From Laetmonice hystrix (Eukaryota), in assembly GCA_965235115.1 (NCBI GenBank), contig OZ249436.1, forward strand, positions 1,428,001 through 1,492,000: a stretch of DNA of 64,000 bases, in the 5' to 3' direction. Under the pieces are notes generated by a model. The model saw only the letters and a program-made list of their open reading frames with translations. It had not been told where the DNA came from and did not search any database. Positions 3,766 through 62,235 of the stretch are shown one piece after another. Within the stretch, counting starts at the first letter, position 1. Every line of letters starts with the position of its first letter. The translations under genes were made by a program, and so were the position numbers.

Positions 3766-3783
3766 GGGCACGGCCAGTATGAA

Positions 3784-15200: not shown

Positions 15201-16228
15201 AAAAATATGGTATATGTGGAAAAATATTAAGTTGGGTCAAAAACTATCTAAGTGGGAGACAGCAAAGAACACTGGCAAATGAAATAATGTCAACAGTAAG
15301 TGATGTAACGTGCGGGGTTCCACAAGGTTCTATTTTGGGACCTTTGTTGTTTTTGATCTATTTTAATGATGTAGAAAGTGTCTGTTCAAATTCCAAAATT
15401 AGATTATATGCAGATGACACAGTGTTGTATAGCTCTGGTACTAGCATTGAAGTTGTGGAGGAAAACGTACAGAAGGATTTAGATAAATTTTCTGAATGGT
15501 GCCTGAGAAATAAGCTAACCGTTAATATTGCAAAAACCAAGTATATGCTATTCAGCCCACAAAAGAAAAGAATGAGCGATACGACACTGATGTTACAGGG
15601 TGAGAGGTTACATAGAGTCCATAGTTATAAGTATCTAGGTGTTACGCTTGACCCACTGGTTAATTTTGAACTATTTGTAAAGAATCAGTTACAAACCATT
15701 TCATTTAGAACGTATCAGTTAAACAAGTTAGCATGTTATATGCCAGTAGATGCATTGGTGAAACTGTATAAGTCTTATATTTTACCCATTATAGACTATG
15801 GTGACGTGTTGTATGCTAATGTCAGCGTGGCACTACTTAACAAACTTCAAAGGTGTCAAAATCGGTGTTTAAAAATATGCTTAAAGGTAAATAATCGCAC
15901 CTCAACAGACTACATACATGCAGTAACGAAAACTCCTTTTTTAAGTCAACGTAGACTAATGCACCAGAAAGTATTCACTTATAAGAGATCACGGATAGAC
16001 GGATACATAGACTCGCAGCATAATAGGACAAGAAATCGTAACGGGCCAATCCTTAAGGTTTTCATGGCTAACACAACTTCCTATCAAAATAGTGTCGAGT
16101 ATTCAGTTGGAATATTATGGAACAATTTGTCGTCAGAAGTAAGACTTGTGCCTTCCCTAGACAATTTTAAGAAAACAATGAAGAATGAACTTTTTGACAC
16201 TATACCATTACTGTGAAACGATTGAAAC

Positions 16229-29900: not shown

Positions 29901-31439
29901 CTAAATGGGCGTGATACGGTAATTTATCAAATTATGGGAAGCAATATGGCTGCGCCCATGAACGACAGCACCACGACAGATGGTACGACTACTTGTATCA
30001 TGAACATGATACTCTCGTAATATTGCCCACTGACTATGGGAAAAACACTGGAGGCCTATTTTAGTTGCTTCCATGCCTGATGCAGGCAAAATACTGCAAG
30101 CACTGCCATGCTGGCGAGAGTCCCAGCTAAATGTACCCGCGATGCAATGCTCAAAATGGCGCTTATTTTACCCGAGGCTACTTTCGAAGATATGGCCGAG
30201 GATTCCCGAATGTCTCTACGGCTTGCGAGGTCCGAGACCACAACTAGCGAAGCGACCGGAAGTTGTGCCGAGGTTTTCCGAATGTCTTGGAATATAGTCT
30301 AGAGTTCGCGAGTTTTGGAAAGGTTGCATTGCTCCCTCCCCGGGAATTGTTGCCCTTGCTTTTCTATGTAGCCGACTAGAGGTCTAAATGAGGTTTCGAT
30401 TTGCTTTTCTTCCACCATTACACTTGGGTTGGGTGTAGATTTACTAACCACGAAATCGAAACCGTCGAGAAGGTAAAAAAAAAATCATTTTAGGGCTGTT
30501 ATTATAAGAAAAAAAGTTACAAAGTCAGAAAGGGACAACTTCCATAAAAAAAAAGTCTTTAAGGGAACTTCAGAATTACTCTGAATATAAAATGGAATGA
30601 ATCCTTAGTGAGAATTTAATCCGAACCGCATTATTAAGACTCAATCAAGAAATACATTAATTGGATATTTTGATTGAATTCGGTTTTCCATCGGCTTTTG
30701 CCCTTTCAATTTCATACCCATGGGAACGTCATGGTCGTGTAAGAATGATAATTGTAAAGTCATTGAACAGTTGAATAGTTTCATTTCACATTCTTTATTT
30801 CAATGCATTACGGATCCAGGATATATCTTTTTTGTTAATCTTTATTCAGGAAAATACATTCGGCTTAAATGCCCTAACAAATGGTGTCCTGTAAATATAC
30901 ATCTTCCTTCGTGACGTCTCACAACTATCGTCATGTCTTTATTTTAATACAGTTACGGATCCAGGATTTCAGCCCGGACTCTTTCAGGGAACAGCGGCCA
31001 GTTTCACCAGCAAAAAAAGTCCTAAAATGTCAATGTCAGTATTCATGAAGGCAACACTAAGACACCAAGACTCCCTGCTGTGACTAAAACAAGACTTGAC
31101 CAATACTCTAGATCCTCTACCAGACCTACCATCAAGAACGACTGAAACACAGACTAACTTCTATCTACATTCGACAACCACTAAGCATGAGCTCGACAAA
31201 TCTATTTCAAGACAAGTAGATCCTCGAGAACCAAATAAAACTAACCTGAACTCCTCCATAAGGATCAAATCCACCCTACGACTAACCACTTGATGAACCT
31301 ACAACCTAACTATATGCCACCTACGTGAACACTGACATTGACTTCTGAATTAGAATACAAATTTATTTAACGGCCCATGTCCCGCATGGCTGAGATTTTA
31401 TAGCATGTAATTAAGTAGCCAACACTTATGGTGCATGGT

Positions 31440-32780
31440 CACTTCTGTTACTGGCCAACAGGCCGAAAATCTTCTTGATGCCTCCTCCATGTTGCTCCGT
31501 GCTAGCGAAACTCCCTCGCGTCCAATCCAGAAATTGCTGCCTTGGTCCCATTGACAGCACGTCTTTCTGAAAGTACCAAGTTCAGAACATGAGTTACGCC
31601 TGTATACGATATTAATGTGTAGGTAGTGGTCATTTATATAAATCTTTACAAAACTAGCCTATACCCCCAGTCTCAAATGGACCTCATACTTCTGTGTCCA
31701 ACCAATGCCACTGCCACTAGTTTTGAGGGAGTGATCCGACTTACTTGTAAACCGTCTGTAGACTTCATTTTGAGAAGGGTCCCGCCAGGCCTATTGACTC
31801 GACTTCACTGAGGGTCCCTGCTCCAGCTCCGTGTGTTGTCCATCCTCCCGTGAATCCACCTGGAGAATAATGACAGGAAACTTATCACTGGTCAGAAAGC
31901 AGCAAACATCATCGATACTTACAAACCTGCAGCTAGGACTTCCACATGGGTGGTCTACTTTCCTGACAAAAAAATGGACTTTTCTGGAAACAATAGTGGA
32001 CATCTACTTCATACGTCGTTTATTTCAAATTGTATGCTACACCAGTACTTACCTGAAAACTTATCCTCGACAACATATCCTCGACAACATATCCTCGACA
32101 ACATATCCTCACTTCTCTTACTGGCCAACAGGCCGAAAATCTTCTTGATGCCTCCTCCATATTGTCCCGTGCTAACGTAACTCCCTCACGTCCAATCCAG
32201 AAATTGCTGCCTTGGTCCCATTGACAGCAGGTCCTTCTGAAAGTACCAAGTTCAGAACATGAGTTACGCCTGTATACGATAATAATGTGTAGGTAGTGGT
32301 CATTTATATAAATCTTTACAAAACTAGCCTATACCCCCAGTCTCAAATGGACCTCATACTTCTGTGTCCAATAATGTCCCCTTACCCGATTCAGCCTCGC
32401 CACTGCCCCACTAGTTTTGAGGGAGTGCTCTGACTTACTTGTAAATCGTCTGTAGACTTCATTTTGAGAAGGCCCCCGCCAGGCCTATTGACTCGTCGTC
32501 ACTGGAGGTCCTTCCTCCAGCTCCGTGTGTTGTCCATCCTCCCGTGAAACCACCTGGAGAATAATGACAGGAAACTTATCACTGGTCAGGAAGCAGCAAA
32601 CATCATCGATACTTACAAACCTGCAGCTAGGACTTCCACATGGGTGGTCTACTTTCCTGAAAAAACGGACTTTTCTGGAAACAATAGTGGACATCTACTT
32701 CATACGTCGTTTATTTCAAATTGTATGCTACACCAGTGCTTACCTGAAAACTTATCCTCGACAACATATCCTCGACTTCA
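31440..32780. repeat. Direct tandem duplication of about 670 bp (two diverged copies)
   Basis: 31440-32109 aligns with 32110-32780 (e.g. ttactggccaacaggccgaaaatcttcttgatgcc twice); junction has repeated tcctcgacaacata. Confidence 0.9.
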
Positions 32781-35700
32781 GGAGAAACTTCCGGTTGAAA
32801 TGAACCATGCTTTCCTCGACAATGTTGTCTGTGGGACAAGAAATGAGAAGTCATTGTTATAGATCATAGTTTACGCTCTGTCAGTCTCATGGTCGATTCC
32901 TAGCCTTACCCTGCCAGACCATAACCTTTAAATAAATGGCCACAATAACCCGAGAATACTTACCTTCACAGAAATGGTTGATCAAAACCTGAGCGCCTGC
33001 ATCATCCTCCCACACACTGTCAGGGCAGCCACGTACCTGGCTATAGTAGAGTCTGGAAGATTCAAATAGAACATTCTAAATTGTCAGTTCATACCTTTAA
33101 CACTGTATAAAATTACACACAGGCAAGAGTTGTTCATCTATAAGGATTACCAGACAAAGAACAGTTTGTCACCTCAAAACCATTATGAATAGGTTAAGTG
33201 TAAGAGACAGACGTACGAAAACATATACATGTAGTTACCTCTTCAGTTGGTGGCAGTTCAGGATGATCTTTTCACCTGTGTCCCTTCATGCATTTGGTTG
33301 GCCTGTTCACCTCAAGAAACATCATTTTGACAGTCGTTCTCATGAAAATATAGGAAATCAAGAGTTATTTGTTCAAACCCTGAAATAAAAATTTGGTTAA
33401 CGTCAAGTCAATACCCAAAAGTCACCGGTGTGGTCAATGGGAGTTTACAAATAAAGGCAGACGCTGGGAGGGGGATAACCATTTTATTGTCCTCGTTCAC
33501 CTTGTCTGTTGATCAACAGACAGTCTGTACAATGTCTGTTTGCGGATTACCAGCTTCCTGGCCACTTCAGATGGTGAAATGATGCTTGAACTTGATGATC
33601 CTTGGCTGTATACCGTGTGACAGTAAGTTGTAGAACTTGTCCCAGTAAGTGAGGTGACATGTGTCGTCTGGTCGATCTGATGACTTGCAGCATAAAAATC
33701 GCGCGCCCTGAAAGATCTTTATTGAAACACGTCATGGCGATTACATCGAAGTGATCCTACAGGCTCTAACCAAGCCAGACACTATAATATAGTACAAACA
33801 CTAGAACCTAAGATATGCTCAATACATCAAGTTTCCTTACACTATCTACACGGTCGTTCTGGTGCTGTCGGTTTCAAACGACCACTTCCTCCTCAGACGG
33901 CATCATGCCCACATTCAACCTCACTCCGAGACACCAGTCGATATGGAAATGGAAAACAATCAAAGTTAATATATGTACAGCAGACGTCATGATTCTGAAA
34001 AAAAAATCCCAGTCCAAAAACAAATATTGAAAGTCAACTATCCGACTTTCAATATTCTGCCTTCATTTGAACTGGGATAGGGGAAGTACAAGCATAGAGG
34101 AGGTCCCTATCGTGTTTGCCCTACCTACCTAACTGACAATCTAACCTGAAACGAACCTAAAGCTAGCTTACTTGACAATCCGGTGTAGAGGGATGAACGG
34201 CGTCCTTTCTAGCAGCTGAAGGCCCCCTACAATACAAAAGTTAGTCTCATCCTACCTGTCGACGACAGTTGGTCGATGTGGACTGTGTTGAAAGTTCTTG
34301 GTTTAGAGTTCATTTCTCCAACTGCACGGTTTAGAGAATGTCAGTGTCAGTAATCCATTCCCAGTGTGAGTATAATCCATGTGAAGATGCAGGTAGTGCA
34401 TGAATATCCTGTTTAAATTCACGCAGGGCGTGCTTGAGTCACACAAGTCAATCACAGTCGACGCTGATAGCTTGACCCTGGGGTCTCCCGTCTGTGCGCT
34501 GCAGGTGCGCATCCAGAATTGGTGTCTACGGGGTCCACTTTTTGATCCCACGGCGGGCCGGTAAATTCGGCGGTGTCTAAAAATACATTTTTGGATCCAT
34601 GATCTCTTGCCGAGTTGGTAACAGCGCTGGGTCGTCTGCCTGGTGGGTGTCGCGACTGTAAGGCCACGTTTTGAACACTGTTTGCCGAGTTGTTTTGTGA
34701 CTTTGGCCCTGACTCCACTGAACCTTGTTTTAAAAATGCCAATGTCGCAAGGAAATTCACATACTGTTGGCAGGCTGCAGGCAATGTCGCTGTCGCAATC
34801 TGAGCGCACGTACGTGGTCAGTAAGAACCACACCGGGTGACACACGACTCAATCCTCTCCGGCACATGTCAACGAATGGCCGAATGATTGGCGTGGTGGT
34901 ACTTTTATAGTCACCAACCACGTAGATCTGACGTCATGGCCATTTCCTAATATGGATCTCATGTCCTTGTGCGTTGCTCCCGTTATGGAAACCGCCGAAA
35001 ACAGGTCCTTCAGAATCCGCAGCCGAAAAGGCTCAAGTCATTCCACCGGTATGGTCCGCGCGTAGGAATATTGTTTCATTATTCATGAGAGGAAGTATTC
35101 AAAAACACGTGTTCAGGAAGTAGGCCTCAATCTGCGCGGACTATTCCGTCCTTCGCAACTCAAGATGATATATATGTAGGCCATAGGTTACTGCATGCTT
35201 TCTTGGATTTTCTTCTTGCCTGTCAAAATTGTTCTGTGAATCAAAAATGGCATATCCAGGGAGCAAGCACTCACCCACCACCCCTAAGGCCAAAAAAATC
35301 CCGGTTTCCGGTCCGCGCGCGCGTCACTTCAGATGCCGCGCATCATTTCTTTTTTCTAGCGGTAAGGCTTAACACTAACCATTGTTGTACATTGGGTAAG
35401 GTCAAATCTAAAAGTTAAATAAGTGTTAACGCTAGGTATTTAGAAAGTGTACTACTAATCCAAAATTTGACCTCGTCCTGGGTGTTTACTTAACACTGAG
35501 TTAACACTGTCACAACAACGTGTTAACACCTAAAACACACCTTGTAAACACCTAGATAACCCAGGTGCCCCCTTAGTCTCAGTAAGGTCCCAGGTGTCTT
35601 TGGAATACCATAGAAAACCTATACCTAAAGTGTTAACCGCCTGAGACTTCTGAGAGAGCCCCATTTGTGCCGTTATCCATGAAAAATTTAGATTTCCTTT

Positions 35701-36111
35701 GTTGTGAATCTATTTCCATGATAGGTGGGATCACATAAACGTCAACAAAATTAAAAATAAAAAAATTGAATTTTTGTTCACGAATAGCACCTTTAACCAC
35801 TAAACATCGCAAACGACGGTATACCCTACAAGTATTTCGATGACCTATAAAGGTGTTATTTTGGGAACTCTTTCAAGCTGTTGTAGGCTATATATGGTTC
35901 AGCCAAACTATCGACGTCTATATAGTCTTGTTTTCAGGCAAATATTCTATAAGGATCTCGAGACATCCACCTAGATGTGTGTCGGGGAGTCGCAGATTGG
36001 CCCATCTACTCTCAGATGAATAACCCAAGGAAAACAAAAACGAAAGGACATAACGTTATTATCATTTTAATCAACCTTTTCTTGTTTTCAGGCAAATCGT
36101 CAAACACAGAC

Positions 36112-37377
36112 ATGGAAAAGTCAGAGAAGGATAAAACGACGACGTCGTTTGCCGTGTTAAAATGTCTGAGTATTCAAGCCGTTAGTTGGGTTCGTGTAAC
36201 TGCTGTGGCCTTATCAGGATTATTGTTAATAAGGCTGAGAGGAACCGTCGGTGTTTTACATCTCAACCTTTACCGGGCAGTCGCCATGCTCATCGGTGTC
36301 ACCCCAGCACTGATGGCATTTGGTGTTGATGTTCGAATACCAGACAGAACAAAATGGCCGCTGCTCGCTCTTCTTGGCTTTCTTGATTCTGTAGCAGGAG
36401 TAGCATACCAGGGACTTTTCTACCATATCCGCCTAGCTGAGGGATTCTCGTATTATCAAGTTGCTTTTCTTTTATCAGTGGGGGCAATGACCCGTTTCTG
36501 GATGAAAGAGAAGTTGAACTGTATAGACTTGGTTTTCGCTGCTCTAACACTGGCTGGATCAGTCGCCATTGGGGTTCCACACGGACCAGTTTATTACGGA
36601 AGTGAAATCACACCAATTGGCGTCCTTTCTAACTGCGGACCTTGTTCAGATAAAACAGACGGAAACTGCAACACATTGGTACGGGATTTCGTGACGAACC
36701 ATCGCGTAGAAAAACATATATACGACAATGGTTCTTTACAATACCGTCTGGTTTACAGTCATGAAGGAAGGAATTCCACATGGACGAATGGAACTAAACC
36801 TCTCAGCATGGACACGGCCAAGTATCTCATGGCAACAGCAGGGACGCATACCATCTCAATTATTGCAGGAGTATCGTCTGCTCTCTTCCTCGTCATCATC
36901 GCGTACCCCATCCGGGACTTACATATTCTGGTCACGATCTTCTGGCTCTCACTTCTGAACCTAGTCGGTAATTTTATAGCAACGTTTTATTTTACAGACA
37001 GATATTTACCTCAGGTGGATCTCAACTGCCTTCTGGTACTATTAGGATTTGTTGTTTCCAGTTCAGTGCAGAATATTTCATTCCTATTCTGTGGTCGATC
37101 TTTCCCGCCGCTATGTGTCGCCACCAACAGTTCGCCGGTCCTTGTTATATTTCTGGTGGCCCAGTATGTCTGGTTTGGAGTGTATCTACCTGACTCTATA
37201 AATCTACCACACACTATCGGATGTGTCATCATCATTTTCAGCTTTATTTTACACCTCCTCGTGAGAACAATAGATACCGTTGTTTCTCTCTACCCGAGAG
37301 GGGCCAGCACCGATTCTACGTTTCTATCGCAAAATTCAATGTCATTTGGAAGACATAAAAATAATAGTGACCGTTGA
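36112..37377 (+). CDS. EamA/DMT-superfamily (SLC35G-like) multi-pass membrane transporter
   Basis: Two blocks of about five hydrophobic helices separated by a hydrophilic loop; F-WMKEKL motif typical of the end of an EamA repeat; acceptor cttgttttcag at 36091 before ATG 36112. An upstream coding exon is possible. Confidence 0.7.
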   Translation: MEKSEKDKTTTSFAVLKCLSIQAVSWVRVTAVALSGLLLIRLRGTVGVLHLNLYRAVAMLIGVTPALMAFGVDVRIPDRTKWPLLALLGFLDSVAGVAYQGLFYHIRLAEGFSYYQVAFLLSVGAMTRFWMKEKLNCIDLVFAALTLAGSVAIGVPHGPVYYGSEITPIGVLSNCGPCSDKTDGNCNTLVRDFVTNHRVEKHIYDNGSLQYRLVYSHEGRNSTWTNGTKPLSMDTAKYLMATAGTHTISIIAGVSSALFLVIIAYPIRDLHILVTIFWLSLLNLVGNFIATFYFTDRYLPQVDLNCLLVLLGFVVSSSVQNISFLFCGRSFPPLCVATNSSPVLVIFLVAQYVWFGVYLPDSINLPHTIGCVIIIFSFILHLLVRTIDTVVSLYPRGASTDSTFLSQNSMSFGRHKNNSDR

Positions 37378-37532: not shown

Positions 37533-38337
37533 CGTTCTGGAAAACTTCCTGACAATGGCCATGGTAATGATGTAATTATTTCAAGAGTTTGTAAAACTTC
37601 CTGACAATGGCCATGATAATGATGTAATTATTTCAAGAGTTTGTAAAACTTCCTGACAATGGCCATGGTAATGATGTAATTATTTCATGTAATTATTTCA
37701 AGAGTTTGTAAAACTTCCTGACAGTGGCCATGATAATGATGTAATTATTTCAAGAGTTTGTAAAACTTCCTGACAATGGCCATGGTAATGATGTAATTAT
37801 TTCAAGAGTTTGTAAAACTTCCTGACAATGGCCATGGTAATGATGTAATTATTTCATGTAATTATTTCAAGAGTTTGTAAAACTTCCTGACAGTGGCCAT
37901 GGTAATGATGTAATTATTTCATGTAATTATTTCAAGAGTTTGTAAAACTTCCTGACAATGGCCATGGTAATGATGTAATTATTTCAAGAGTTTGTAAAAC
38001 TTCCTGACAATGGCCATGGTAATGATGTAATTATTTCAAGAGTTTGTAAAACTTCCTGACAGTGGCCATGGTAATGATGTAATTATTTCATGTAATTATT
38101 TCAAGAGTTTGTAAAACTTCCTGACAGTGGCCATGGTAATGATGTAATTATTTCATGTAATTATTTCAAGAGTTTGTAAAACTTCCTGACAGTGGCCATG
38201 ATAATGATGTAATTATTTCAAGAGTTTGTAAAACTTCCTGACAATGGCCATGATAATGATGTAATTATTTCAAGAGTTTGTAAAACTTCCTGACAGTGGC
38301 CATGATAATGATGTAATTATTTCGAGAGTTTGTAAAA
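37533..38337. repeat. 52/66-bp tandem repeat overlapping the 3' end of the kelch ORF
   Basis: Unit aaaacttcctgacaatggccatggtaatgatgtaattatttcaagagtttgt. Confidence 0.92.
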
Positions 38338-40796
38338 ATCGTAGGGCGATGTACACAACACGTCTTCAGGTATCTGAGACCATGTTCCTGCTGTTGCGAT
38401 AGAAGCGTCACTTCCTCCTGTTCCATGTTGATGACCATGGCGTCACCGAACGCTGGCCCTCCTACCAGGTAAAACTCCTCCCCGACAACCACACCCCGCG
38501 TATGGCCCACACCCCGTGGTAAAGTCGTCGCTAACATACTCCACTGCTCAGTTTCCGGGTCGTAGATTTCTACCTCTAACACAGGAGATATTGCTCCTTC
38601 GTCATCCGTGCCATAGCCGCCACAAACCAAAACATTTTTTTAGCCCCCACAACGGGGGGCTTATAATTCGACCTCCGTCCGTCCGTACGGCCGTACGTCC
38701 GTCCGTATGTCCGTATGTCCGTAGACAGCGATTTCTCAGAAGTGTATGGGTCGATTTCTTTGAAACTTCACACAAGGATCAGGGATAAACTGAGGATGAT
38801 GCACGTCAAACAGATTTTTGATATCATTCAAAATGGCCGCTTGGCGGCCATCTTGGGTGTAAACACATTTTGAGCAATAACTCAGCCAAAACAATCACGA
38901 TTTCTTTCAAACATGGTGCAGGGATGAGGCATAATGAGGGCCAATATGCACCACAATAAAATTTCAATTCAGATCCAAAATGGCGAGATGGTGGCCATAT
39001 TTGTTTCTTGACCCCCACAATGACACTGTTTTGGCTTATATCTCGAAAACGGTGCAAGATGGCGCAATAGTTACTATTATTGATAGATAGGAAGTCATAT
39101 ATGACGTTTCATTTGGCGCCATTTTCGATGACCTTGAGCGACCTTGAAAGGTCAATCAAGGTCATGCATATTTTCAATATCCTGGATCTTCAAAACAATT
39201 AAAGATAACGACATAATCTTGCAAGAAACATTACATAATGATCCGGGACAGTCCACGGATGAGGCAGGTCAAAGATATTTTTGACATCAGTCAAAATGGC
39301 CGCGTGGTGGCCATCTTGGATGTAAACACATTTGGAGTAATAACTCACACAAAACGATCCCGATTTCTTTCAAATTTGGTGGAAAGAAGGTGTATATGAG
39401 GGGCAATGTATATGCCAATGTATTGCCAGATCAGTGCAAATATGGCGACATGGCGGCCATATTAATATTTTACCCCCCCCCCCATAACACTGTTTTGGCT
39501 CATATCTCGAAAACGGTGCAAGATAAGGCAATAGTTATTATTACTGACAGATAGGAAGTCATATATGACGTTTCATTTGGCGCCATTTTCGATGACCTTG
39601 AGCGACCTTGAAAGGTCAATCAAGGTCATGCATATTTGCAATAGCCTGGATCTTCAAAACAGTTAAAGATAACGATATAATCTTGCATGAAACATTACAT
39701 AATGATCCGGGACAGTCCACGGATAAGGCAGGTCAAAGATATTTTTGACATCAGTCAAAATGGCCGCGTGGTGGCCATCTTGGATGTAAACACATTTGGA
39801 GTAATAACTCACACAAAACGATCACGATTTCTTTCATATTTGGTGGAAAGAAGGTGTATATGAGGGGCAATGTATATGCCAATGTATTTCCAGATCAGAG
39901 GAAATATGGCGACATGGCAGCCATATTAATATTTTACCCCCCCCCCCCTCATAACACTGTTTTGGCTCATATCTCGAAAACGGTGCAAGATAAGGCAACA
40001 GTTATTATTATTGATAGATAGGAAGTCATATATGAAGTTTCATTTGGCGTCATTTTCCATGACCTTGAGCGAACTTGAAAGGTCAATCAAGGTCATGCAT
40101 ATTTTAATGGCCTGTACCTCCAAACCAGTTGAAAATAACATCTAATCTTGCATGAAACATTACATAATAACCAGGGACAGTCTAAGGAGGACACAGGTCA
40201 AATATATCATTAAAAATGGCTGCTTGGTGGCCATCTTGGATTTAAAGAAATTCGAAGCAATAACTGACATTTTCTGGATTTCGTTCTTGCTGACAGAATG
40301 CATGAGGGGCAACAAGCGTGCCAAAAGTACGCATAGTTCCCGGACCCACAGATAATTTGTCTCTATCAGTTGGTTCACGCCAGACAATGCTATCAAACTG
40401 TACATAACTGACCTCTAAAGGTCAATCGAGGTCAAGCATATCTACAAAATACTTCATGTCGGATAACACTATCAAACTGTACATAACTGCATAGTTATTG
40501 CAGACACATGCATCTTTACGCCTGATAATGCCATCAAGCTGTACATATAACTGCATAGAACTTTACTAAGTTTACAAAGTTTCATTTGACAATATTTCCT
40601 TTGCCCTTCAAAGATCAGTTGAAGTCGTGCATCGTTTTTTCAAGAATCCATAGTTTGTGGTGGGGGCTTTAAGCTTCACAAGCTTGTTCATTAAGAATTC
40701 AGTCTGCACGCTGCAGAAATGATATGAATGGCCGAATACCCGTCTTGCTCGTAAACCACCGGACCGTGTGGACGTTATATTTGCCCAATAATTATT
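38265..40796 (-). pseudogene. Kelch-repeat coding fragment split by a TE insertion
   Basis: VLVCGGY...VEIYDPETEQW...FYLVGG kelch motifs at 38340-38635. Removing 38636-40687 restores a continuous frame from 40796 (NNYWANITS...EFLMNVLVCGGY). Confidence 0.6.
38636..40687 (+). mobile_element. Non-autonomous Helentron-associated (HINE/DINE-1-like) element
   Basis: Inserted in a TT; 5' palindrome agccccc-acaac-ggggggct; (gtcc)n microsatellite near the 5' end; about three ~480-bp internal repeats; 3' gggggct subterminal repeat plus aagctt-cac-aagctt hairpin. Confidence 0.75.
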
Positions 40797-42665: not shown

Positions 42666-43256
42666 TCAGCAAATATTGTCACCTTCAGTAAGGCACCCTA
42701 ACAGAAATGCGTAATGAATAAGTTGTTTCTGGAAACCCGTATTTGAAAGGATCTTTCCTCGAAGATTCTTAACGTTTCTCACAATATCTAAGAGTTTTGA
42801 TTTTCTCTTTGCCATTATATAGGCAATGCAGACAGCAACACTTCGGTTCATTCCCTTTGCACAGTAAACCAGCACCTTTCCGCCTGCGTTGTTGGCCGTT
42901 TCTATAAAATCTGTCGCTTCTTCAAAATGCTGAGATATCTGGTACGACTTTGAATCGTCCGCTTCAAATTGACGGTATGCCAGAATGCCGGCCTCTCCTC
43001 CTCGACAGAAGAGAGGCCGTCGGTTTCTTGTAGTGTATGCGCCTGCGCAGTTCAGAACGTGTGTGATTCCGAGTCCTTTGAGAAGTCCCGGGCTGTTAGC
43101 GTCGCTGTAGTCACCTAGATATAGGTAATGTAGCAACTGGGCTGGGCCGTGGCTGTACCATGAAGTTGATAAGTTCTGATGTGGCTTGCTGTGTAGAATA
43201 TCTTGTAAAAGACCCTGGACTCTTTCTTCATCTGCCTCTGTCATTGCAGACGTCAT
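42666..43256 (-). CDS. Atypical dual-specificity protein phosphatase
   Basis: YLYLGD, LGITHVLNCA, catalytic loop VYCAKGMNRS, AYIM, SNTGFQKQL; single coding exon preceded by an acceptor near 43273. Confidence 0.9.
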   Translation of the reverse strand: MTSAMTEADEERVQGLLQDILHSKPHQNLSTSWYSHGPAQLLHYLYLGDYSDANSPGLLKGLGITHVLNCAGAYTTRNRRPLFCRGGEAGILAYRQFEADDSKSYQISQHFEEATDFIETANNAGGKVLVYCAKGMNRSVAVCIAYIMAKRKSKLLDIVRNVKNLRGKILSNTGFQKQLIHYAFLLGCLTEGDNIC

Positions 43257-50507: not shown

Positions 50508-51195
50508 TGAACGTTTAATCACGCTCGATGGTTTCGTCATGGTGGAGTAGGTTCCTCTGACGAGCCAGATAATACATTCAGATCAGTGACGTATATACGT
50601 TTAATCACGTTCGATGGTTTCGTCATGGTGGAGTAGGTTTCTCTGACATTCAGATCAGTGACGTATACGTTTAATCACGTTCGATGGTTTCGTCATGGTG
50701 GGGTAGGTTTCTCTGACATTCAGATCGGTGACGTGTAAGTTTAATCACGTTCGATGGTTTCGTCATGGTGGAGTAGGTTTCTCTGACGAGCCAGATGGTA
50801 TATTCAGATCCGTGACGTATACGTTTAATCACGTTCGATGGTTTCGTCATGGTGGAGTAGGTTTCTCTGACATTCAGATCCGTGACGTATACGTTTAATC
50901 ACTCTCGATGGTTTCGTCATGGTGGAGTAGGTTTCTCTGACGAGCCAGATGGTATATTCAGATCAGTGACGTATAGGCTACGTTTAATCACGTTCGATGG
51001 TTTCGTCATGGTGGAGTAGGTTTCTCTGACATTCAGATCGGTGATACCTACGTTTAATCACGCTCGATGGTTTCGTCATGGTGGAGTAGGTTTCTCTGAC
51101 GAGCCAGATAGTACATTCAGATCAGTGACGTATACGTTTAATCACGTTCGATGGTTTCGTCATGGTGGAGTAGATTTCTCTGACGAGCCAGATGG
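50508..51195. repeat. About 70/88-bp tandem repeat derived from the 3' end of the second DUSP CDS
   Basis: Unit cgtttaatcacgttcgatggtttcgtcatggtggagtaggtttctctgac... is the reverse complement of the last codons and stop of 51138-51695. Confidence 0.9.
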
Positions 51196-51695
51196 ATGAG
51201 CTGACGTTGGAACCCGTCGCTCACACAGACAATACCTCTCTGCTCCTTCACTCTCGTGAAAACGTCCAATAAGGACGCCTGGTACTCCAACATGAGATAT
51301 GCCACACAGAGGGCGCCACTGCGGTTCACACCTAGCCCGCAGTGAATGAAAACACGCGCTTTCTCGTCCCTTGCCTTATCAATGACTCGTTGTACTTCCG
51401 GGAGGTGCTGCATGAGATCGTAATCTCCATCATCTTGAGCGTATATATCGACATATTCCTTGATACAGCCAGATTGAGCATACAAGTCTTGGTTGTCAAT
51501 CGTAAGCGCTGAACAGTTGATGACGTAGCTTATTCCCAATCTGCGCAAGAGTCCAATGTTGCTTGCATCCTCGGCACTTCCAAGATAAAGATATTCAGTA
51601 AGTTGTGTCGGTTCTGGATCAATCCACACAGGTTCCTCACTTAGGATCTCCTGCATTCGACTCTCAAACATAGAGTCTTCAGCAATGGCCATCAT
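51138..51695 (-). CDS. Atypical dual-specificity protein phosphatase (paralog of 42666-43256)
   Basis: PTQLTEYLYLGS, LGISYVINC, catalytic loop IHCGLGVNRS, AYLM, GFQRQL; polypyrimidine acceptor at 51704-51719; in-frame ATG at 51695. Confidence 0.9.
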   Translation of the reverse strand: MMAIAEDSMFESRMQEILSEEPVWIDPEPTQLTEYLYLGSAEDASNIGLLRRLGISYVINCSALTIDNQDLYAQSGCIKEYVDIYAQDDGDYDLMQHLPEVQRVIDKARDEKARVFIHCGLGVNRSGALCVAYLMLEYQASLLDVFTRVKEQRGIVCVSDGFQRQLIHLARQRNLLHHDETIERD

Positions 51696-55210: not shown

Positions 55211-58200
55211 ATGAACATCCTGAATGCTGCTGTAAGTTTCTTGGCGGTACTGACCGCTGCTCTGTCCTCAGTCAGTGGACAGAGCAAGGTTGAGCAGGCT
55301 GAGGATGGGTCATCGGGAACCATCAGTTTCAGCACGCCCGACCTGCACGATGATGAGGCCCACAGTCCATGGATGCCAGACGAACTGCGGTGTGACGCTT
55401 GCACAGCGGTGGCCTACCAGGTAAAAATTTTAATTATTTAGGCCTACGGGTCACAACCTCCTGAGCCGGGAGATCTGAGCATCCGCGCATGAAACAGCTG
55501 TTTGTTCGTGGTGCATGCATAGGCCGCTAACTTGGATGGAAAAGGTAGGGCGGAGGGCTCACCGAGAGCCCGGGGAGAACACGCGACAAGCGCCGGGCGG
55601 ACCTGGGCGATAATATAAGCTAGCGGCCGGTAAGCTGACGCGGCCGGTGTTACCGGGGGAAAGGGGCGTTGCCGCGTAGGACGCGATGGAACCCACTGTG
55701 TATCAAGACTGTATAGGCCTCTTTCAGCGTTTAAATAGATGTAGGCCAAGGGATCTTTTTATGTTATTAGTAAAGTTCCTTGTAAGTTTGGTTGTTAGTT
55801 TTTTGAAACAATTATATAGGCCTATAATCCGCGGTGTAGGCGTTCTACTGAAGTGCAAGATATAGACTTGGAATAATTCAGGTAAACTGGTAGAGGTTGC
55901 CATGGCAACCTGCTAAGGCTGTCACCTGTCTGTACTCATGGTAGAGTACCGTCACAGGATGAGGAGGCCACGTGTCGTGATTTGATTGGTTGCAGTCGAC
56001 TTTTGTGCATGCAAAGGTTTTGTGCAAGTATGAACAAAGTAAGTATTAATAAAGTGGTATATATGCGTACCTGGGAAATATGTACAACAGGGCGTATAGG
56101 CCTGTTTATAAATATCCCAGCAAAGGCACAGTTAACAAGTGTGTGTCACACAGGTCCTAGGCAATGGAAGTTTGTCATATTTTCACCACAATGTCAATTG
56201 AGATGCTGTATTCCCATTTTTTATTCTTTTTTTTTTCAGATGTGGCACAAGTTTTTTGGTTATAATGAGAAAAGGAAGTCGTTGAAGTATAATTTACCCG
56301 AGTCAGATATTATTGATCTCCTAGAGCAGGTGTGCACAACAAGTAAAACATGGGAGGGGTGAGTAATCTTTTCATACCAATCTACATCTACTTCAAGCAA
56401 GATTGTAAAAATACCTCAATGATTTTGTCACAGAAATATTGAAACTTAGGTTTAAGAAAGTGAAAGTCTGAATAGTTCACTTCTAATAGCTAATGTTCAT
56501 GGTGTTATAAGTTGCTGAGCTCTTTATGTGTTCTCTTGTGATCATTTGTAAAGGAGGCTGAAGGTCAAGTTTCAGAGGTCAAGATTGTATAGTCTTTGTT
56601 TGACTTCCTTAAGGCGGTATTTTCACGCCTGTGGGTAAGAAATGTTTGATGTGTAAAATGATCTGCCATATCCAATCACAGATCAGTAACAGTAGTCAGT
56701 CATGTGATGTAGTAATTGTTGTACTTGGTGGAATGAATGGAGTATTGTAACATGATTAGTCTACGATACATTTGTCATCATGTCACAGTCTGGAAAACAC
56801 ATTGAAAACTTCTGAGCTGTGGACCACACATTAATAATATTGTTCCTTTCTGGCAAGTTGCAAATAACCTTCAAAGATGAAAGTATGTAAAAGGTTTTTG
56901 GTAAGAGTTTTTTTAAAGACTAATTATTCTCTCTTGATTTCGCCAGTTACAAACAATCGTTGACACAGGCAACCGTAAAGGTTTTCCTGTAACCTTTCCA
57001 GTGACTTAAAACATTCCCAATGAGATTCGACTGTGTAAAAACAGACAGGTCTATAACCACATGGAGAATATTTATGGAGGCAGTATTTCTGAGTGGGTAG
57101 GGGAGGACAGGGACGCCTGGGACGTGTATTATCAAGTTTATTATCACAGTACACATCTATAATAGTTCAGTTCGTTGTGCTGGATTGACAGCTATGGTCT
57201 GAGTGAGGGAGGGGAGGACAGGGACATGTATTAACAAGTTTATTATCACAGTACACATGTATAACTATAATAGTTCAATTCGTTGTGCTGGATTGACAGC
57301 TATGGTCTGAGTGAGGGAGGGGAGAACAGGGACATGTATTAACAAGTTTATTATCACAGTACACATGTATAACTATAATAGTTCAATTCGTTGTGCTGGA
57401 TTGACAGCTATGGTCTGAAGGAGATGAAACCAACCAAAGAACATCGCCTGGTTGGAGATGGTCTTCCTGACCACCAGATGGCAGGAGTGATCACTGGAGG
57501 TGGTAAATGGCCCGCCAGGTAGCGCTGCAACCGTTAAACGTGTGAGTGTGAGACTGCCAGTGTCAGAGTGTGCCTTCCTCGCTCCATGACCAATGGTAAC
57601 GCAAACCTGGATATCTATAACACACAGATAACTGAAAGGAGAAATTCTTCTTTGTGGGGGGCTGTAGCACCCCCAGTCCCCCTATAGGCCTAGGATACAA
57701 GATGGTAATTTTTTTATACAAAAGCCAACTTTAGGTGGAATGTAAAAATAGCGACTGAGAAGGAGCGAGTGCCTGGAAGGTTTTGGGTAACACCCTGACA
57801 CCTGGTGGACACTCTCCACACTACAAGGTTGAATTGTTTGCGAGCACGTGCACCCAGAATGACTCGGCACGACGCCATACAGACACGTGTGTTTGAAATC
57901 TCGAATATTCTACCCACAAAATAATTTATTACACCACTTATACAAACTCCTGCCTTCCTCGCACAAAATCTGCAGTCATGTTAACACATGCTACGTACAG
58001 TTTTCCAGTGGTTCTTTCAGTAACTAAACCAAGGTATGTAGTTTCCAGACGGTTTGCCGTGTTGGTGAACTTTCTGTCACAGAAAGTAAACCAAAGATGA
58101 ACTGGTAAGGACGTCTAAGATGTCTGTTCATTGTGTTAAACATGTGCAGGCAGCCAGGAAATATCACAATACCAGCAAAGGTGTAAGTCGGAGGTAGCCA

Positions 58201-61200
58201 TGGGGCTTCAGTTTGGTTGTGATAAAGTTAGTTTGCATTTCGTAATGTGTCCTTTCAGCTACGGTATGAAGGAGGTCCAGAAGAAGCACCGACTCTCCGG
58301 GGAAGGTTTACCATCCGCTGACGTACCTGGCATCACTGCGGGTGGGGGACGGTGGCCGGCCAGGTAGGCGGGGTGAGCGGGTCAGAACACCCCCACACCA
58401 CACTGACCCCTGGTGGTGTGGGTGGGGGACGGTGGCCGGCCAGGTAGGCGGGGTGAGCGGGTCAGAACACCCCCACACCACACTGACCCCTGGTGGTGTG
58501 GGTGTGGGTGGGGGACGGTGGCCGGCCAGGTAGGCGGGGTGAGCGGGTCAGAACACCCCCACACCCACACCACACTGACCCCTGGTGGTGTGGGTGGGGG
58601 TGGGGGACGGTGGCCGGCCAGGTAGGCGGGGTGAGCGGGTCAGAACACCCCCACACCCACACCACACTGACCCCTGGTGGTGGGGGTGTGGGTGGGGGAC
58701 GGTGGCCGGCCAGGTAGGCGGGGTGAGCGGGTCAGTACACCCCCACACCACACTGACCCCTGGTGGTGTGGGTGTGGGTGGGGGACGGTGGCCGGCCAGG
58801 TAGGCGGGGTGAGCGGGTCAGTACACCCCCACACCCACACCACACTGACCCCTGGTGGTGTGGGTGGGGGTGGGGGACGGTGGCCGGCCAGGTAGGCGGG
58901 GTGAGCGGGTCAGTACACCCCCACACCACACTGACCCCTGGTGGTGTGGGTGTGGGTGGGGGACGGTGGCCGGCCAGGTAGGCGGGGTGAGCGGGTCAGA
59001 ACACCCCCACACCCACACCACACTGACCCCTGGTGGTGTGGGTGGGGGTGGGGGACGGTGGCCAGCCAGGTAGGCGGGGTGAGCGGGTCAGAACACCCCC
59101 ACACCCACACCACACTGACCCCTGGTGGTGGGGGTGTGGGTGGGGGACGGTGGCCGGCCAGGTAGGCGGGGTGAGCGGGTCAGAACACCCCCACACCCAC
59201 ACCACACTGACCCCTGGTGATGGGGGTGAGGGTGAGGGTGGGGGACGGTGGCCGGCCAGGTAGGCGGGGTGAGCGGGTCAGTACACCCCCACACCCACAC
59301 CACACTGACCCCTGGTGGTGGGGGTGTGGGTGGGGGACGGTGGCCGGCCAGGTAGGCGGGGTGAGCGGGTCAGAACACCCCCACACCCACACCACACTGA
59401 CCCCTGGTGGTGTGGGTGGGGGACGGTGGCCGGCCAGGTAGGCGGGGTGAGCGGGTCAGAACACCCCCACACCCACACCACACTGACCCCTGGTGGTGTG
59501 GGTGGGGGTGGGGGACGGTGGCCGGCCAGGTAGGCGGGGTGAGCGGGTCAGTACACCCCCACACCACACTGACCCCTGGTGGTGTGGGTGTGGGTGGGGG
59601 ACGGTGGCCGGCCAGGTAGGCGGGGTGAGCGGGTCAGAACACCCCCACACCCACACCACACTGACCCCTGGTGGTGTGGGTGGGGGTGGGGGACGGTGGC
59701 CAGCCAGGTAGGCGGGGTGAGCGGGTCAGAACACCCCCACACCCACACCACACTGACCCCTGGTGGTGGGGGTGTGGGTGGGGGACGGTGGCCGGCCAGG
59801 TAGGCGGGGTGAGCGGGTCAGAACACCCCCACACCCACACCACACTGACCCCTGGTGATGGGGGTGAGGGTGAGGGTGGGGGACGGTGGCCGGCCAGGTA
59901 GGCGGGGTGAGCGGGTCAGTACACCCCCACACCCACACCACACTGACCCCTGGTGGTGTGGGTGGGGGACGGTGGCCGGCCAGGTAGGCGGGGTGAGCGG
60001 GTCAGTACACCCCCACACCCACACCACACTGACCCCTGGTGGTGCGGGTGGGGGTGGGGGACGGTGGCCGGCCAGGTAGGCGGGGTGAGCGGGTCAGAAC
60101 ACCCCCACACCCACACCACACTGACCCCTGGTGGTGTGGGTGGGGGACGGTGGCCGGCCAGGTAGGCGGGGTGAGCGGGTCAGTACACCCCCACACCCAC
60201 ACCACACTGACCCCTGGTGGTGCGGGTGGGGGTGGGGGACGGTGGCCGGCCAGGTAGGCGGGGTGAGCGGGTCAGAACACCCCCACACCCACACCACACT
60301 GACCCCTGGTGGTGTGGGTGGGGGACGGTGGCCGGCCAGGTAGGCGGGGTGAGCGGGTCAGTACACCCCCACACCCACACCACACTGACCCCTGGTGGTG
60401 CGGTTGGGGGTGGGGGACGGTGGCCGGCCAGGTAGGCGGGGTGAGCGGGTCAGAACACCCCCACACCCACACCACACTGACCCCTGGTGGTGGGGGTGGG
60501 GGACGGTGGCCGGCCAGGTAGGCGGGGTGAGCGTGTCAGTACACCCCCACACCCACACCACACTGACCCCTGGTGATGGGGGTGAGGGTGGGGGACGGTG
60601 GCCGGCCAGGTAGGCGGGGTGAGCGGGTCAGAACACCCCCACACCCACACCACACCGACCCCAGGTGGTGTGGGTGGGGACGGTGGCCGGCCAGGTAGGC
60701 TCCCGTCATCGGTCTGGTTGGTGGCAAGTGTACACAGGACACGTGGACACACCCCGACTGGTGGTGGTGGGGGTGAACCGGTCAGAATAAACCCACACCC
60801 ACACCCACCAAGTGTCTTTATTATGTCTTCCCCGCCTCCCCTCTCACTGTGTATTACCTTTCAGAAACTCTGAGGAAGTCAAGTCTGCAGTGGTAATTGT
60901 CAGGGAGTCTGGTCAGAAAGAGTTGGGTAAAGTTAGGGTTGTTGATTGCAGGTTTGGAGTGAAGGAGATAGGCGACGTCAAACGCCTCTCTGGTCCACGC
61001 CTGGCCACCCAGCACCACCCTGGCTCCACTCAGAGTGGTGGCCACTGGCCGGCTAGGCACAGCAACTGTCAATACGTGACAGCTGTCAATCATGTCATGT
61101 CAGATGTCCGTCACGTGATACCATTCGTGTGTTTTCGTAATAGGATTTGTTCTGTCATAGGGATTATAGCGCCAAAATATGTGCGATTACGGGTAAATGT

Positions 61201-62145
61201 AGGAGGGGGTCTAACAATTGGACAAAATCCCACAGCCCTCGGGTCTAACAATTGGACAAAATCCCACAGCCCTCCACATACTATTTTAGAATCACATTTT
61301 CATGAAAAACACATTGCTTGTGAATGCTCAATAAAGTGCTACCTTTAATAATACATTACCCCGGTAACAGTAAATATTCTGGTATAATGTTCAAATATTG
61401 ATGTACCGGTACTTATACAAATACAATGTATGTACGCCATCTGTGCACCTTGTGATCTAGAGTACGCTGTGCATGTAGTTTTATTTTCGGAGATGACTTA
61501 GACCAGCGTGGCACCATCGTCATGAGCTGTCAGAGGTGTTCTTCCCCTGATAGCTTTTCAGGAACTGTTAGAGTAGACATCTACTTATTAAACACTCATC
61601 TTTATTTATATGAATTAGGCGTGATTTGTTGTGCCCTGAAATATATTGTTGTCCCATTGTTTGTTTGATACCTTTGCTGCTAAAGTATGCGTAATGTCTA
61701 TTTTAGAAGCAGGATATTTAATGTAATATATTGGTAATAGTATGATACAGTCTTACCAAACAGTTATGATTTTACCAAATGATTTTAGAGGCTTTTAGAG
61801 TCTGAACAATTTTCATGTTATAAAGTTGTTTATATACATGTCTATGTAACATTCCTAAAAGTAAACAAATTTACCAATTGAACCTGCAGTTTTATCAAGT
61901 AAAATTACGATCCATGTAAATGTACAAGACAATCAACGCTTGGGTACGATCAAATGTCAACATATTTTTGCAGACTTCAAGATATGTGCGAGCAGTATAT
62001 CGGAGATCTGGGAGAAGTCGAGATCTACAAATATTTCAAGAAGGCACCCAAGAATCGGCAAAACTTTGAGGACTATTTATGTCATGGTGACGGAATCCGG
62101 GGAGATTGTTTAGGGGCGGATCGCTCCAGGAAGGACGAATTATGA
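55211..62145 (+). CDS. MZB1: MZB1/pERp1-like ER-resident saposin-fold (canopy-related) protein, 4 exons with three exon-3 variants
   Basis: e1 55211-55420 (signal peptide, PDLHDDEAHSPWMPDELRCDACTAVAYQ), e2 56240-56358, e3 (57408-57518, 58259-58363 or 60952-61056), e4 61974-62145 (RLQDMCEQYIGDLGE...LC...C...KDEL). Matches the MZB1 pattern LRCDAC-AVAYQMW / YGV-EV--KRL-G-GL / GG-WP-RL---C--Y-G--GE as I recall it. Confidence 0.88.
57120..57417. repeat. About 109-bp tandem repeat (about 3 units) spanning the MZB1 exon 3a acceptor
   Basis: ttgtgctggattgacag|ctatggtctga occurs three times (about 57190, 57299, 57407); only the last continues into the exon. Confidence 0.88.
57408..57518 (+). CDS. MZB1: MZB1-like alternative exon 3a
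   Basis: gacag|C...GCC AG|gtag, 111 nt, YGLKEMKPTKEHRLVGDGLPDHQMAGVITGGGKWPA(R). Confidence 0.85.
58259..58363 (+). CDS. MZB1: MZB1-like alternative exon 3b
   Basis: cctttcag|C...GCC AG|gtagg, 105 nt, YGMKEVQKKHRLSGEGLPSADVPGITAGGGRWPA(R). Confidence 0.88.
58341..60698. repeat. G/C-rich 80-98-bp minisatellite (about 26-27 units) spanning the exon 3b donor
   Basis: Each unit contains ggtgggggacggtggccggccag|gtagg plus about 60 nt of structured intron-like sequence. Confidence 0.95.
60952..61056 (+). CDS. MZB1: MZB1-like alternative exon 3c (non-canonical GC donor; may be weak or decaying)
   Basis: ttgcag|G...GCT AG|gcacag, 105 nt, FGVKEIGDVKRLSGPRLATQHHPGSTQSGGHWPA(R). Confidence 0.65.
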   Translation, partial: VWSEGDRRRQTPLWSTPGHPAPPWLHSEWWPLAG

Positions 62146-62235
62146 GAGGCAGAAAACGAAGGGGAAAAATGAAGAGAAATATATCATGTAACATCACGGA
62201 TGTCCTGTTTGTAAATACGCATCTTTGTACTGTTT

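What the first reader, a model, noticed from the sequence alone, without database searches (positions are those of the whole stretch)
57408..61056. Second exon-duplication cluster: three exon-3 variants in an invertebrate MZB1-like chaperone
Seen: three paralogous phase 2-2 exons (111, 105, 105 nt) share (Y/F)G-KE...RL-G--L...GG-WPAR but differ in the middle. Because they are symmetric they could be mutually exclusive or co-included; a single saposin-like fold argues for one at a time. Exon 3c has a GC donor and a second in-frame acceptor at 60865 that would add 29 aa. Established: vertebrate MZB1 is an ER co-chaperone for immunoglobulin and integrin maturation. Inference: in a probable invertebrate without antibodies, swapping this segment may change client specificity.
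Basis: partly seen in the sequence, partly recalled or inferred. Interest (0 to 1): 0.72.

Follow-up and report, generated by a model that had tools for sequence, protein, structure and literature searches.

The report
Three alternative loop exons in MZB1
A worm-like animal's gene for a small protein-folding helper (MZB1, known in vertebrates for helping to build antibodies) carries three old, still-intact copies of the exon for its family-specific loop, most likely used one at a time, and similar twin copies turn up in other invertebrates, although no RNA was available to prove the splicing.

Summary
Observation confirmed. An annelid-like MZB1/CNPY5 gene (55211-62145, +) holds three phase 2-2 copies of exon 3 (111, 105, 105 nt). 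They are old (third codon positions near saturation), keep frame and splice sites, and show a codon pattern of purifying selection. 3b is the most canonical; 3a and 3c evolve faster. The 3c 'GC donor' is a GC/GT polymorphism. The 29-codon extension from 60865 has the better acceptor and coding-like base periodicity, so a long 3c form is plausible. Exon 3 encodes the beta-hairpin/loop between saposin helices 2 and 3, which bears the CNPY5 signature and was proposed in print as the partner-specific part. New: tandem exon-3 pairs also occur in three unrelated records (L005, L009, P0145), while three other complete loci have one copy; copies tend to group within their locus (support unstarred). 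Best reading: mutually exclusive exons that tune the loop (0.6). Splicing, the exclusion mechanism and client change are untested. The kind is well known; the gene and the recurrence were not found in nine literature searches. The scan had no MZB1 note, but has an unchecked note of a similar switch in an ascidian canopy gene.

The parts
55211..55420 (+). Exon 1 (coding part): start codon, hydrophobic signal-peptide-like N-terminus, CxxC of helix 1; phase 0, GT donor
56240..56358 (+). Exon 2 (119 nt): end of helix 1, helix 2 with its cysteine; ends in phase 2
   Evidence: (weak DUF3456 match, E 0.065, under the curated cut-off)
57119..57418 (+). 108-bp x 2.8 tandem repeat that copies the 3a acceptor; the two upstream copies (exon starts 57192, 57300) would run into a stop after 13 codons
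57408..57518 (+). Exon 3a (111 nt, phase 2-2, AG/GT); two extra residues in the hairpin; signature reads LVGDGL; weak pyrimidine tract (9 of 17)
58259..58363 (+). Exon 3b (105 nt, phase 2-2, AG/GT); closest to the family consensus, probable main exon; signature reads LSGEGL; tract 12 of 17
58340..60700 (+). Minisatellite of about 92 bp x 26 made of the 3' end and donor of 3b (27 donor copies); use of a later donor would bring an in-frame stop
60865..60951 (+). In-frame 5' extension of 3c (29 codons, one extra cysteine) behind a stronger acceptor (tract 12 of 17, 50-nt AG-free zone, branch-point-like CTCAC at -19); coding-like periodicity
60952..61056 (+). Exon 3c (105 nt, phase 2-2); weak acceptor (8 of 17); donor GC in the window, GT in 2 of 3 runs; signature reads LSGPRL, with Arg where 100 of 101 relatives have Gly
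61974..62145 (+). Exon 4 (coding part): helix 3 cysteine, helix 4, C-x8-C, C-terminal KDEL, stop

Best explanation
A four-exon MZB1/pERp1/CNPY5 gene of an annelid-like animal duplicated its third exon twice, long ago. Each mature message most likely keeps one copy (3b mostly; 3a, 3c or a long 3c in some cells or conditions), giving ER proteins with the same disulfide-bonded saposin core and KDEL tail but different beta-hairpin/loop modules between helices 2 and 3. That module is the family-specific part, so the isoforms probably differ in partner or client binding as GRP94-type co-chaperones. Shown: gene anatomy, homology, selection pattern, position in the fold, recurrence of tandem copies in other animals. 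Inferred: that 3a and 3c are spliced today, that splicing is one-at-a-time, that exclusion rests on weak acceptors plus splicing regulators (no steric, frame-shift or RNA-pairing mechanism found here), and any change of client.
For: Same phase, length, frame and splice sites, the criteria used to predict such exons (PMC5740500 passages). Identity by codon position 20/29/8, 19/24/9 and 17/25/15 of 34; pS 0.93, 0.63, 0.59 against pN 0.28, 0.45, 0.39. Neutral drift to this divergence keeps frame and splice sites in 4-6% of 5000 runs without indels, 0-0.5% with them. A GT allele of the 3c donor exists; the only variant seen inside 3c is synonymous and none breaks the frame. In a model of the Owenia relative (pLDDT 74.6; matches human pERp1 7AAH, E 5.5e-10) exon 3 is strands 115-119 and 122-126, a loop and the first turn of helix 145-160; an exon end inside a secondary-structure element is typical of such exons (PMC5740500 section 7). 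Of 196 database proteins with an exon-3 segment, 195 have one; the exception, P0145, looks like an unspliced genomic read-through. Tandem copies with intact AG/GT ends and the same codon pattern in L005 and L009. PMC6566547 names LxGPGL as unique to CNPY5 and proposes the helix 2-3 region as the source of functional differences.
Against: No spliced transcript of any copy was seen. No database protein pair shares its flanks but differs in exon 3 (174 proteins; 259 pairs), though clustering at 50-90% would hide many. 3a and 3c rank 99th and 86th of 104 against a family profile and sit on long branches; dN/dS for pairs with 3c is about 0.5 and 3c lacks a near-invariant glycine, which also fits relaxed selection. 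All copies are symmetric and the introns between them are 740 and about 2500 nt, so neither frame shift nor steric hindrance can force exclusion. No docker/selector pairing above shuffles. Two relatives carry 72 residues between the helix 2 and helix 3 cysteines and one model 104, so long inserts may be tolerated.
Confidence: 0.6

Rival explanations
1. Only 3b is used today. 3a and 3c were once functional (hence the codon pattern) but are now rarely spliced or decaying, in a genome that readily duplicates exon edges.
For: 3a and 3c have weak acceptors (9 and 8 pyrimidines of 17), long branches (1.37 and 1.15 against a median of 0.22) and departures at conserved columns. One allele of the 3c donor is GC. 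Minisatellites sit on exon edges here and in the neighbouring acyl-CoA dehydrogenase gene. No swapped-exon protein pair was found in the databases.
Against: Both keep exact phase, open frame and splice sites at 50-56% nucleotide identity, which drift rarely allows. Conserved columns G, K, R, L, G, G, GG, W, P are kept in all three. Intact diverged pairs recur in other animals.
Confidence: 0.22
2. The copies are cassette or co-included exons: two or three are spliced together and give a longer insert with repeated hairpins.
For: Co-inclusion keeps the frame, all six cysteines and KDEL. No exclusion mechanism was found. Some relatives have long inserts at this place. Mandatory inclusion of a duplicated exon is reported for vertebrate COE factors (PMC2394523, title in search listing only).
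Against: Co-inclusion would give 84 or 119 residues between the two cysteines against 38-60 in 150 of 151 relatives measured. No full-length protein among 230 has two segments. Each copy ends in the first turn of helix 3, of which the fold has one. The spacers in L009 (79 nt) and, by inference, P0145 (about 54 nt) are short enough to suggest steric exclusion there.
Confidence: 0.13
3. Assembly artefact, collapsed alleles or remnants of tandem whole-gene copies.
For: The region is rich in tandem repeats and no contig bridging the whole cluster was examined.
Against: The copies differ at about 45% of bases, far beyond alleles; exons 1, 2 and 4 occur once in the window; 3c and exon 4 are covered by contigs of 3 of 3 runs at 95-100% identity, and these runs hold 72-89% of the sampled words of the exon 1-3b stretch.
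Confidence: 0.03

Closest known systems
Human MZB1 / pERp1 / CNPY5 (PDB 7AAH; PMC6566547; PMC13003553)
   Same: Four-exon gene, signal peptide, six cysteines with an N-terminal CxxC, saposin-like fold, KDEL-like end; only solved relative found by sequence (E 1.8e-36) and by fold.
   Different: Human splicing variants listed in PMC7927887 (passages) are one coding form plus decay and retained-intron forms, with no duplicated exon 3 mentioned. The last two cysteines are spaced C-x8-C, not C-x6-C. None of the three copies has the exact LxGPGL signature. Immunoglobulin clients are absent in invertebrates (own knowledge).
Mutually exclusive homologous exons born by tandem exon duplication (Hatje et al. 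2017, PMC5740500; PMC9741552 and PMC8373072 seen as listings only)
   Same: Neighbouring exons of the same frame, similar length and sequence, encoding one structural region, with one end inside a secondary-structure element.
   Different: Exclusion not shown by reads; no frame-shift or steric lock in this gene; one copy has a second acceptor that would add 29 residues, beyond the usual length tolerance of 20 residues used in prediction.
Single-exon-3 MZB1-like genes of other invertebrates (L001, L003, L007; annotated proteins of Owenia, Helobdella, bivalves, echinoderms)
   Same: Same exon boundaries and phases; 43-58% identity to the predicted 3b form for the nearest annelid-like proteins.
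   Different: One exon 3 between exons 2 and 4.

Membership tests
MZB1/pERp1/CNPY5 | Six conserved cysteines with N-terminal CxxC | tested here: met
   Cys 61, 64, 102, 150, 181, 190 in the 3b form; feature from PMC6566547 section 5
MZB1/pERp1/CNPY5 | C-terminal ER-retention signal | tested here: met
   ends in KDEL-stop
MZB1/pERp1/CNPY5 | N-terminal signal sequence | tested here: inconclusive
   Hydrophobic stretch at residues 1-21 (9-residue hydropathy up to 2.6); no signal-peptide predictor available
MZB1/pERp1/CNPY5 | Saposin-like fold like 7AAH | tested here: met
   Profile holding the window's exons hits 7AAH alone, E 1.8e-36; model of the 53%-identical Owenia protein matches 7AAH, TM 0.84 by target. 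The window's own spliced protein was not folded.
MZB1/pERp1/CNPY5 | LxGPGL signature between helices 2 and 3 | tested here: inconclusive
   Variants LVGDGL, LSGEGL, LSGPRL; the exact motif is in only 76 of 161 relatives, the looser hydrophobic-x-G-x-G in 155 of 161; 3a and 3b fit the looser form, 3c does not (by eye)
MZB1/pERp1/CNPY5 | C-x6-C at the C-terminus | tested here: not met
   C-x8-C (Cys 181, 190), as in the nearest annelid-like relatives (alignment); a lineage variant rather than a different family in my reading
MZB1/pERp1/CNPY5 | ER residence and GRP94/BiP co-chaperone activity | not testable with these tools
   Reported for mammals (PMC13003553 passages; PMC6566547 section 10)
Mutually exclusive duplicated exons | Homologous neighbours in the same frame, similar length, with splice sites and no stop | tested here: met
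Mutually exclusive duplicated exons | Kept by purifying selection | tested here: met
   strongest for 3a/3b, weaker (dN/dS about 0.5) for pairs with 3c
Mutually exclusive duplicated exons | Each exon joined to both flanking exons in transcripts, and no joints between copies | not testable with these tools
   No spliced reads could be laid for this organism
Mutually exclusive duplicated exons | An enforcing mechanism (steric, frame shift, U2/U12, RNA pairing) | tested here: inconclusive
   Frame shift and steric lock excluded in this gene; RNA pairing not above shuffles; most human clusters also lack these

The most novel reading that the evidence does not exclude
Exon 3 of MZB1/CNPY5, the signature loop module, has been duplicated independently in several invertebrate lineages (this annelid-like animal three copies; a second annelid-like record, an echinoderm-like record and a third record two each) and turned each time into a switchable partner-binding module, one version here with an added 29-residue, cysteine-bearing piece. 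That would give natural loop swaps on one core with which to find what the antibody-free ancestor of MZB1 binds and where client specificity lies.
Probability: 0.3. Interest if true: 0.7.

Novelty: new member of a known kind. Interest (0 to 1): 0.48.

Why it matters
How MZB1 recognises its clients is open, and what it does in animals without antibodies is not described in the papers searched. The helix 2-3 insert was proposed as the specificity-bearing part of canopy proteins (PMC6566547). A gene that swaps exactly this insert, in more than one animal lineage, points to the insert as the tunable element and supplies ready-made variants for pull-down tests. The splicing device itself is ordinary.

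Tried and rejected
RNA test: no RNA holder listed (3 runs of one study, kind not on record), which says nothing about expression. The three runs were laid only on 60705-62230 (3c to exon 4), so variants in 3a and 3b were not examined; no joints were listed. No whole genome is held. The organism's own protein was not among the hits. Idea that 60865-60951 is a decayed fourth copy: not supported (codon-shuffle p 0.27-0.61 against the window's exons, lowest 0.034 of 13 comparisons; profile rank 174 of 457 scored). Shared 9-mer before 3a and the first L005 copy: p about 0.005 for that pair, but a 9-mer or longer arises in 140 of 300 shuffled sets of all pairs; dropped as evidence of orthology. Docker/selector search: best sites -16 to -21 kcal/mol, within or at the edge of 12 shuffles; inverted repeats unremarkable. 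Trees: 34 amino-acid columns and 105 bases resolve little; no cross-locus orthology was rejected (p-AU 0.07-0.26) and a clade of the window's three copies was neither shown nor rejected (p-AU 0.13). Folding the long-3c fragment gave no usable model (pLDDT 42.9); the Atlas gave no usable hit. The coding-bias score used one training frame wrongly and was redone; only one search is used. Four of 13 metagenome loci (L010-L013) were dropped as chance matches (profile score under 11). Surface exposure of the variable residues could not be computed (no coordinates available); the paper on the 7AAH structure was seen only as a reference.
Full report
1. What is there. The window holds, on the + strand, a gene with exon 1 at 55211-55420, exon 2 at 56240-56358, three candidate third exons (3a 57408-57518, 3b 58259-58363, 3c 60952-61056) and exon 4 at 61974-62145. 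Every single-copy form reads open to a KDEL end with six cysteines (201-203 residues). The three peptides are 39-53% identical and align far above 2000 shuffles. A profile scan of the interval, leaving out the repeat array, finds three copies and no more. Exons 1, 2 and 4 occur once in the window.

2. Family and animal. A profile of 14 sequences that includes the window's exons hits one solved structure, human MZB1/pERp1 (7AAH, E 1.8e-36). The nearest full-length proteins are two unnamed ones (56-58%), Owenia fusiformis (53%), the nemertean Tubulanus (49%) and the leech Helobdella (43%), so the animal is probably an annelid (inference). Human MZB1 also has four exons (PMC13003553, passages). 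Relatives are widespread: 681 representatives at E 0.001, and pERp1-like proteins are noted even in trypanosomes (bioRxiv 10.64898/2026.04.03.716285, passages).

3. Are the copies alive? The pairs keep 29, 24 and 25 of 34 second codon positions but only 8, 9 and 15 third positions; pS is 0.93, 0.63, 0.59 and pN 0.28, 0.45, 0.39. Simulated drift to that divergence keeps frame and splice sites in 4-6% of runs without indels and 0-0.5% with them; this shows selection over most of their history, not necessarily now. 3b is the most canonical (profile rank 50 of 104; 3c 86; 3a 99), and 3a and 3c have long branches. 3c has Arg where 100 of 101 relatives have Gly. Contigs of three public runs laid on 60705-62230 show T at 61058 in two, so the donor is GC/GT polymorphic; the one variant inside 3c is synonymous and none of the coding variants breaks the frame.

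4. The long form of 3c. The acceptor at 60865 has 12 pyrimidines in 17, a 50-nt AG-free zone and a branch-point-like CTCAC at -19; the one at 60952 has 8 in 17 and a 13-nt zone. The 87 bases between them score as coding in the right frame (4.0 against -4.5 and -5.1; p 0.005 in 20000 shuffles, 0.016 among stop-free shuffles; reached by 1 of 2732 overlapping intron windows), and 2 of 3 variants there are synonymous, too few to count alone. So long 3c is at least as likely as short 3c (inference). It adds a seventh cysteine and makes the insert 76 residues, close to the 72 of two database relatives. It is not a detectable fourth copy.

5. Place in the fold. In an AlphaFold model of the Owenia protein (pLDDT 74.6; Foldseek to 7AAH E 5.5e-10), the exon-3 segment (114-148) is a two-stranded hairpin, a short helix and loop, and the first turn of helix 3. 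PMC6566547 (abstract, sections 5 and 10 read) reports that canopy proteins differ mainly between helices 2 and 3, that LxGPGL there is unique to CNPY5, and proposes that this region binds partners and gives GRP94 client specificity. The three copies read LVGDGL, LSGEGL and LSGPRL at that motif and differ most in the hairpin tip and the residues after it. That the region binds clients is a published proposal, not a result.

6. Recurrence. One metagenome scan gave 13 loci, 9 of them true exon-3 loci. Two carry two tandem copies with AG/GT ends: L005 (953-1057 and 2478-2582, then one exon 4 most like annelid-type sequences) and L009 (170-274 and 354-458, 79 nt apart; first copy 88% identical to Asterias MZB1-like proteins). 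Both pairs are 70/102 identical with only 12 and 11 of 34 third positions kept. Three loci span exon 2 to exon 4 with one copy (L001, L003, L007), three show one copy but are cut short, and one has no introns. A database entry from an ENA contig, P0145, reads through two copies 18 residues apart, which would be an intron of about 54 nt (inferred from the protein only). In the protein tree the L005 pair (90/84) and the P0145 pair (94/92) group together; in the DNA tree 3a with 3b (90/92) and the L009 pair (91/74) do; none is starred and cross-locus orthology is not rejected. Independent duplications are favoured, not shown; homogenisation of an old pair is possible.

7. One at a time? For: 195 of 196 proteins with the segment have one copy; 150 of 151 measured have 38-60 residues between the flanking cysteines, against 84 or 119 for co-inclusion and 12 for skipping; the exon ends inside helix 3, which PMC5740500 (passages and section 7) finds typical of validated exclusive exons. 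Against: no reads; no swapped-exon protein pair in the databases; no frame-shift or steric lock (introns 740 and 2501-2588 nt); no RNA pairing above shuffles; some relatives bear long inserts. The likeliest control here is a strong default exon (3b) and weaker acceptors opened by regulators (inference); the short spacers in L009 and P0145 would fit steric exclusion there (inference).

8. Background. This genome expands minisatellites at exon edges: 27 copies of the 3b donor, 3 of the 3a acceptor, and the acyl-CoA dehydrogenase gene 35-40 kb away has three 94-nt copies of one exon with a similar array. These arrays look like by-products; mis-splicing into them would give stops. Exon multiplication may therefore be common in this animal, which lowers the surprise of any one case.

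9. Novelty. Nine literature searches (listings seen, six papers opened in part) showed no report of a duplicated or exclusive exon in MZB1/CNPY5 or of the gene's role in annelids; the library lacks most subscription papers, and no supplements were read. Human MZB1 splicing in PMC7927887 (passages) concerns decay and retained-intron forms. The scan's earlier notes hold nothing on MZB1 but include unchecked notes on a middle-module switch in an ascidian canopy gene and on exclusive exon pairs in two Owenia genes. Verdict: a real, selected, probably mutually exclusive exon triplet, a new member of a known kind, with an unreported recurrence at the family's signature loop. Interest 0.48.

Noticed in passing
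window 20498-20405, 19938-19845, 17463-17370 (- strand): Acyl-CoA dehydrogenase gene (Pfam; isovaleryl-CoA type by recall) with three homologous 94-nt exons, all AG/GT; 94 is not a multiple of three, so co-inclusion of two shifts the frame. A 98-bp x 21 array (17407-19457) copies the acceptor side of the third. Same architecture as the MZB1 cluster.
   Followed up: partly
window 58340-60700 and 57119-57418: Minisatellites built from splice-site-containing exon edges (27 donor copies; 3 acceptor copies), a natural test of how decoy splice sites are ignored.
   Followed up: partly
window 21311-21708 (- strand): 51-bp x 8 array that repeats part of another coding exon of the same acyl-CoA dehydrogenase gene.
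   Followed up: no
window 51186-51695 (-) and 42672-43253 (-): Two single-frame dual-specificity phosphatase genes, 36% identical.
   Followed up: no
window 36100-37374 (+) and 38300-38639 (-): A long single-frame membrane-transporter-like ORF (weak EamA match) and a Kelch-repeat piece.
   Followed up: no
window 3766-6600 and 13341-16213 (+): Two diverged endonuclease/reverse-transcriptase-like long ORFs, probably non-LTR retroelements (family by recall).
   Followed up: no
window 31400-32860: Recent tandem duplication of about 700 bp (80-95% identical translations) with no gene assigned.
   Followed up: no
P0114 and P0067: MZB1-like database proteins with a naturally lengthened helix 2-3 insert (72 residues between the cysteines); P0114 is annelid-like and has a strongly changed loop, perhaps a paralogue doing by gene duplication what this gene does by exon duplication.
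   Followed up: partly
P0020 (Solemya velum model): Annotated MZB1-like model with two exon-1-like stretches in a row: an alternative first exon or two merged genes.
   Followed up: no
L008:492-995: MZB1-like sequence without introns across the exon 2-4 region.
   Followed up: no
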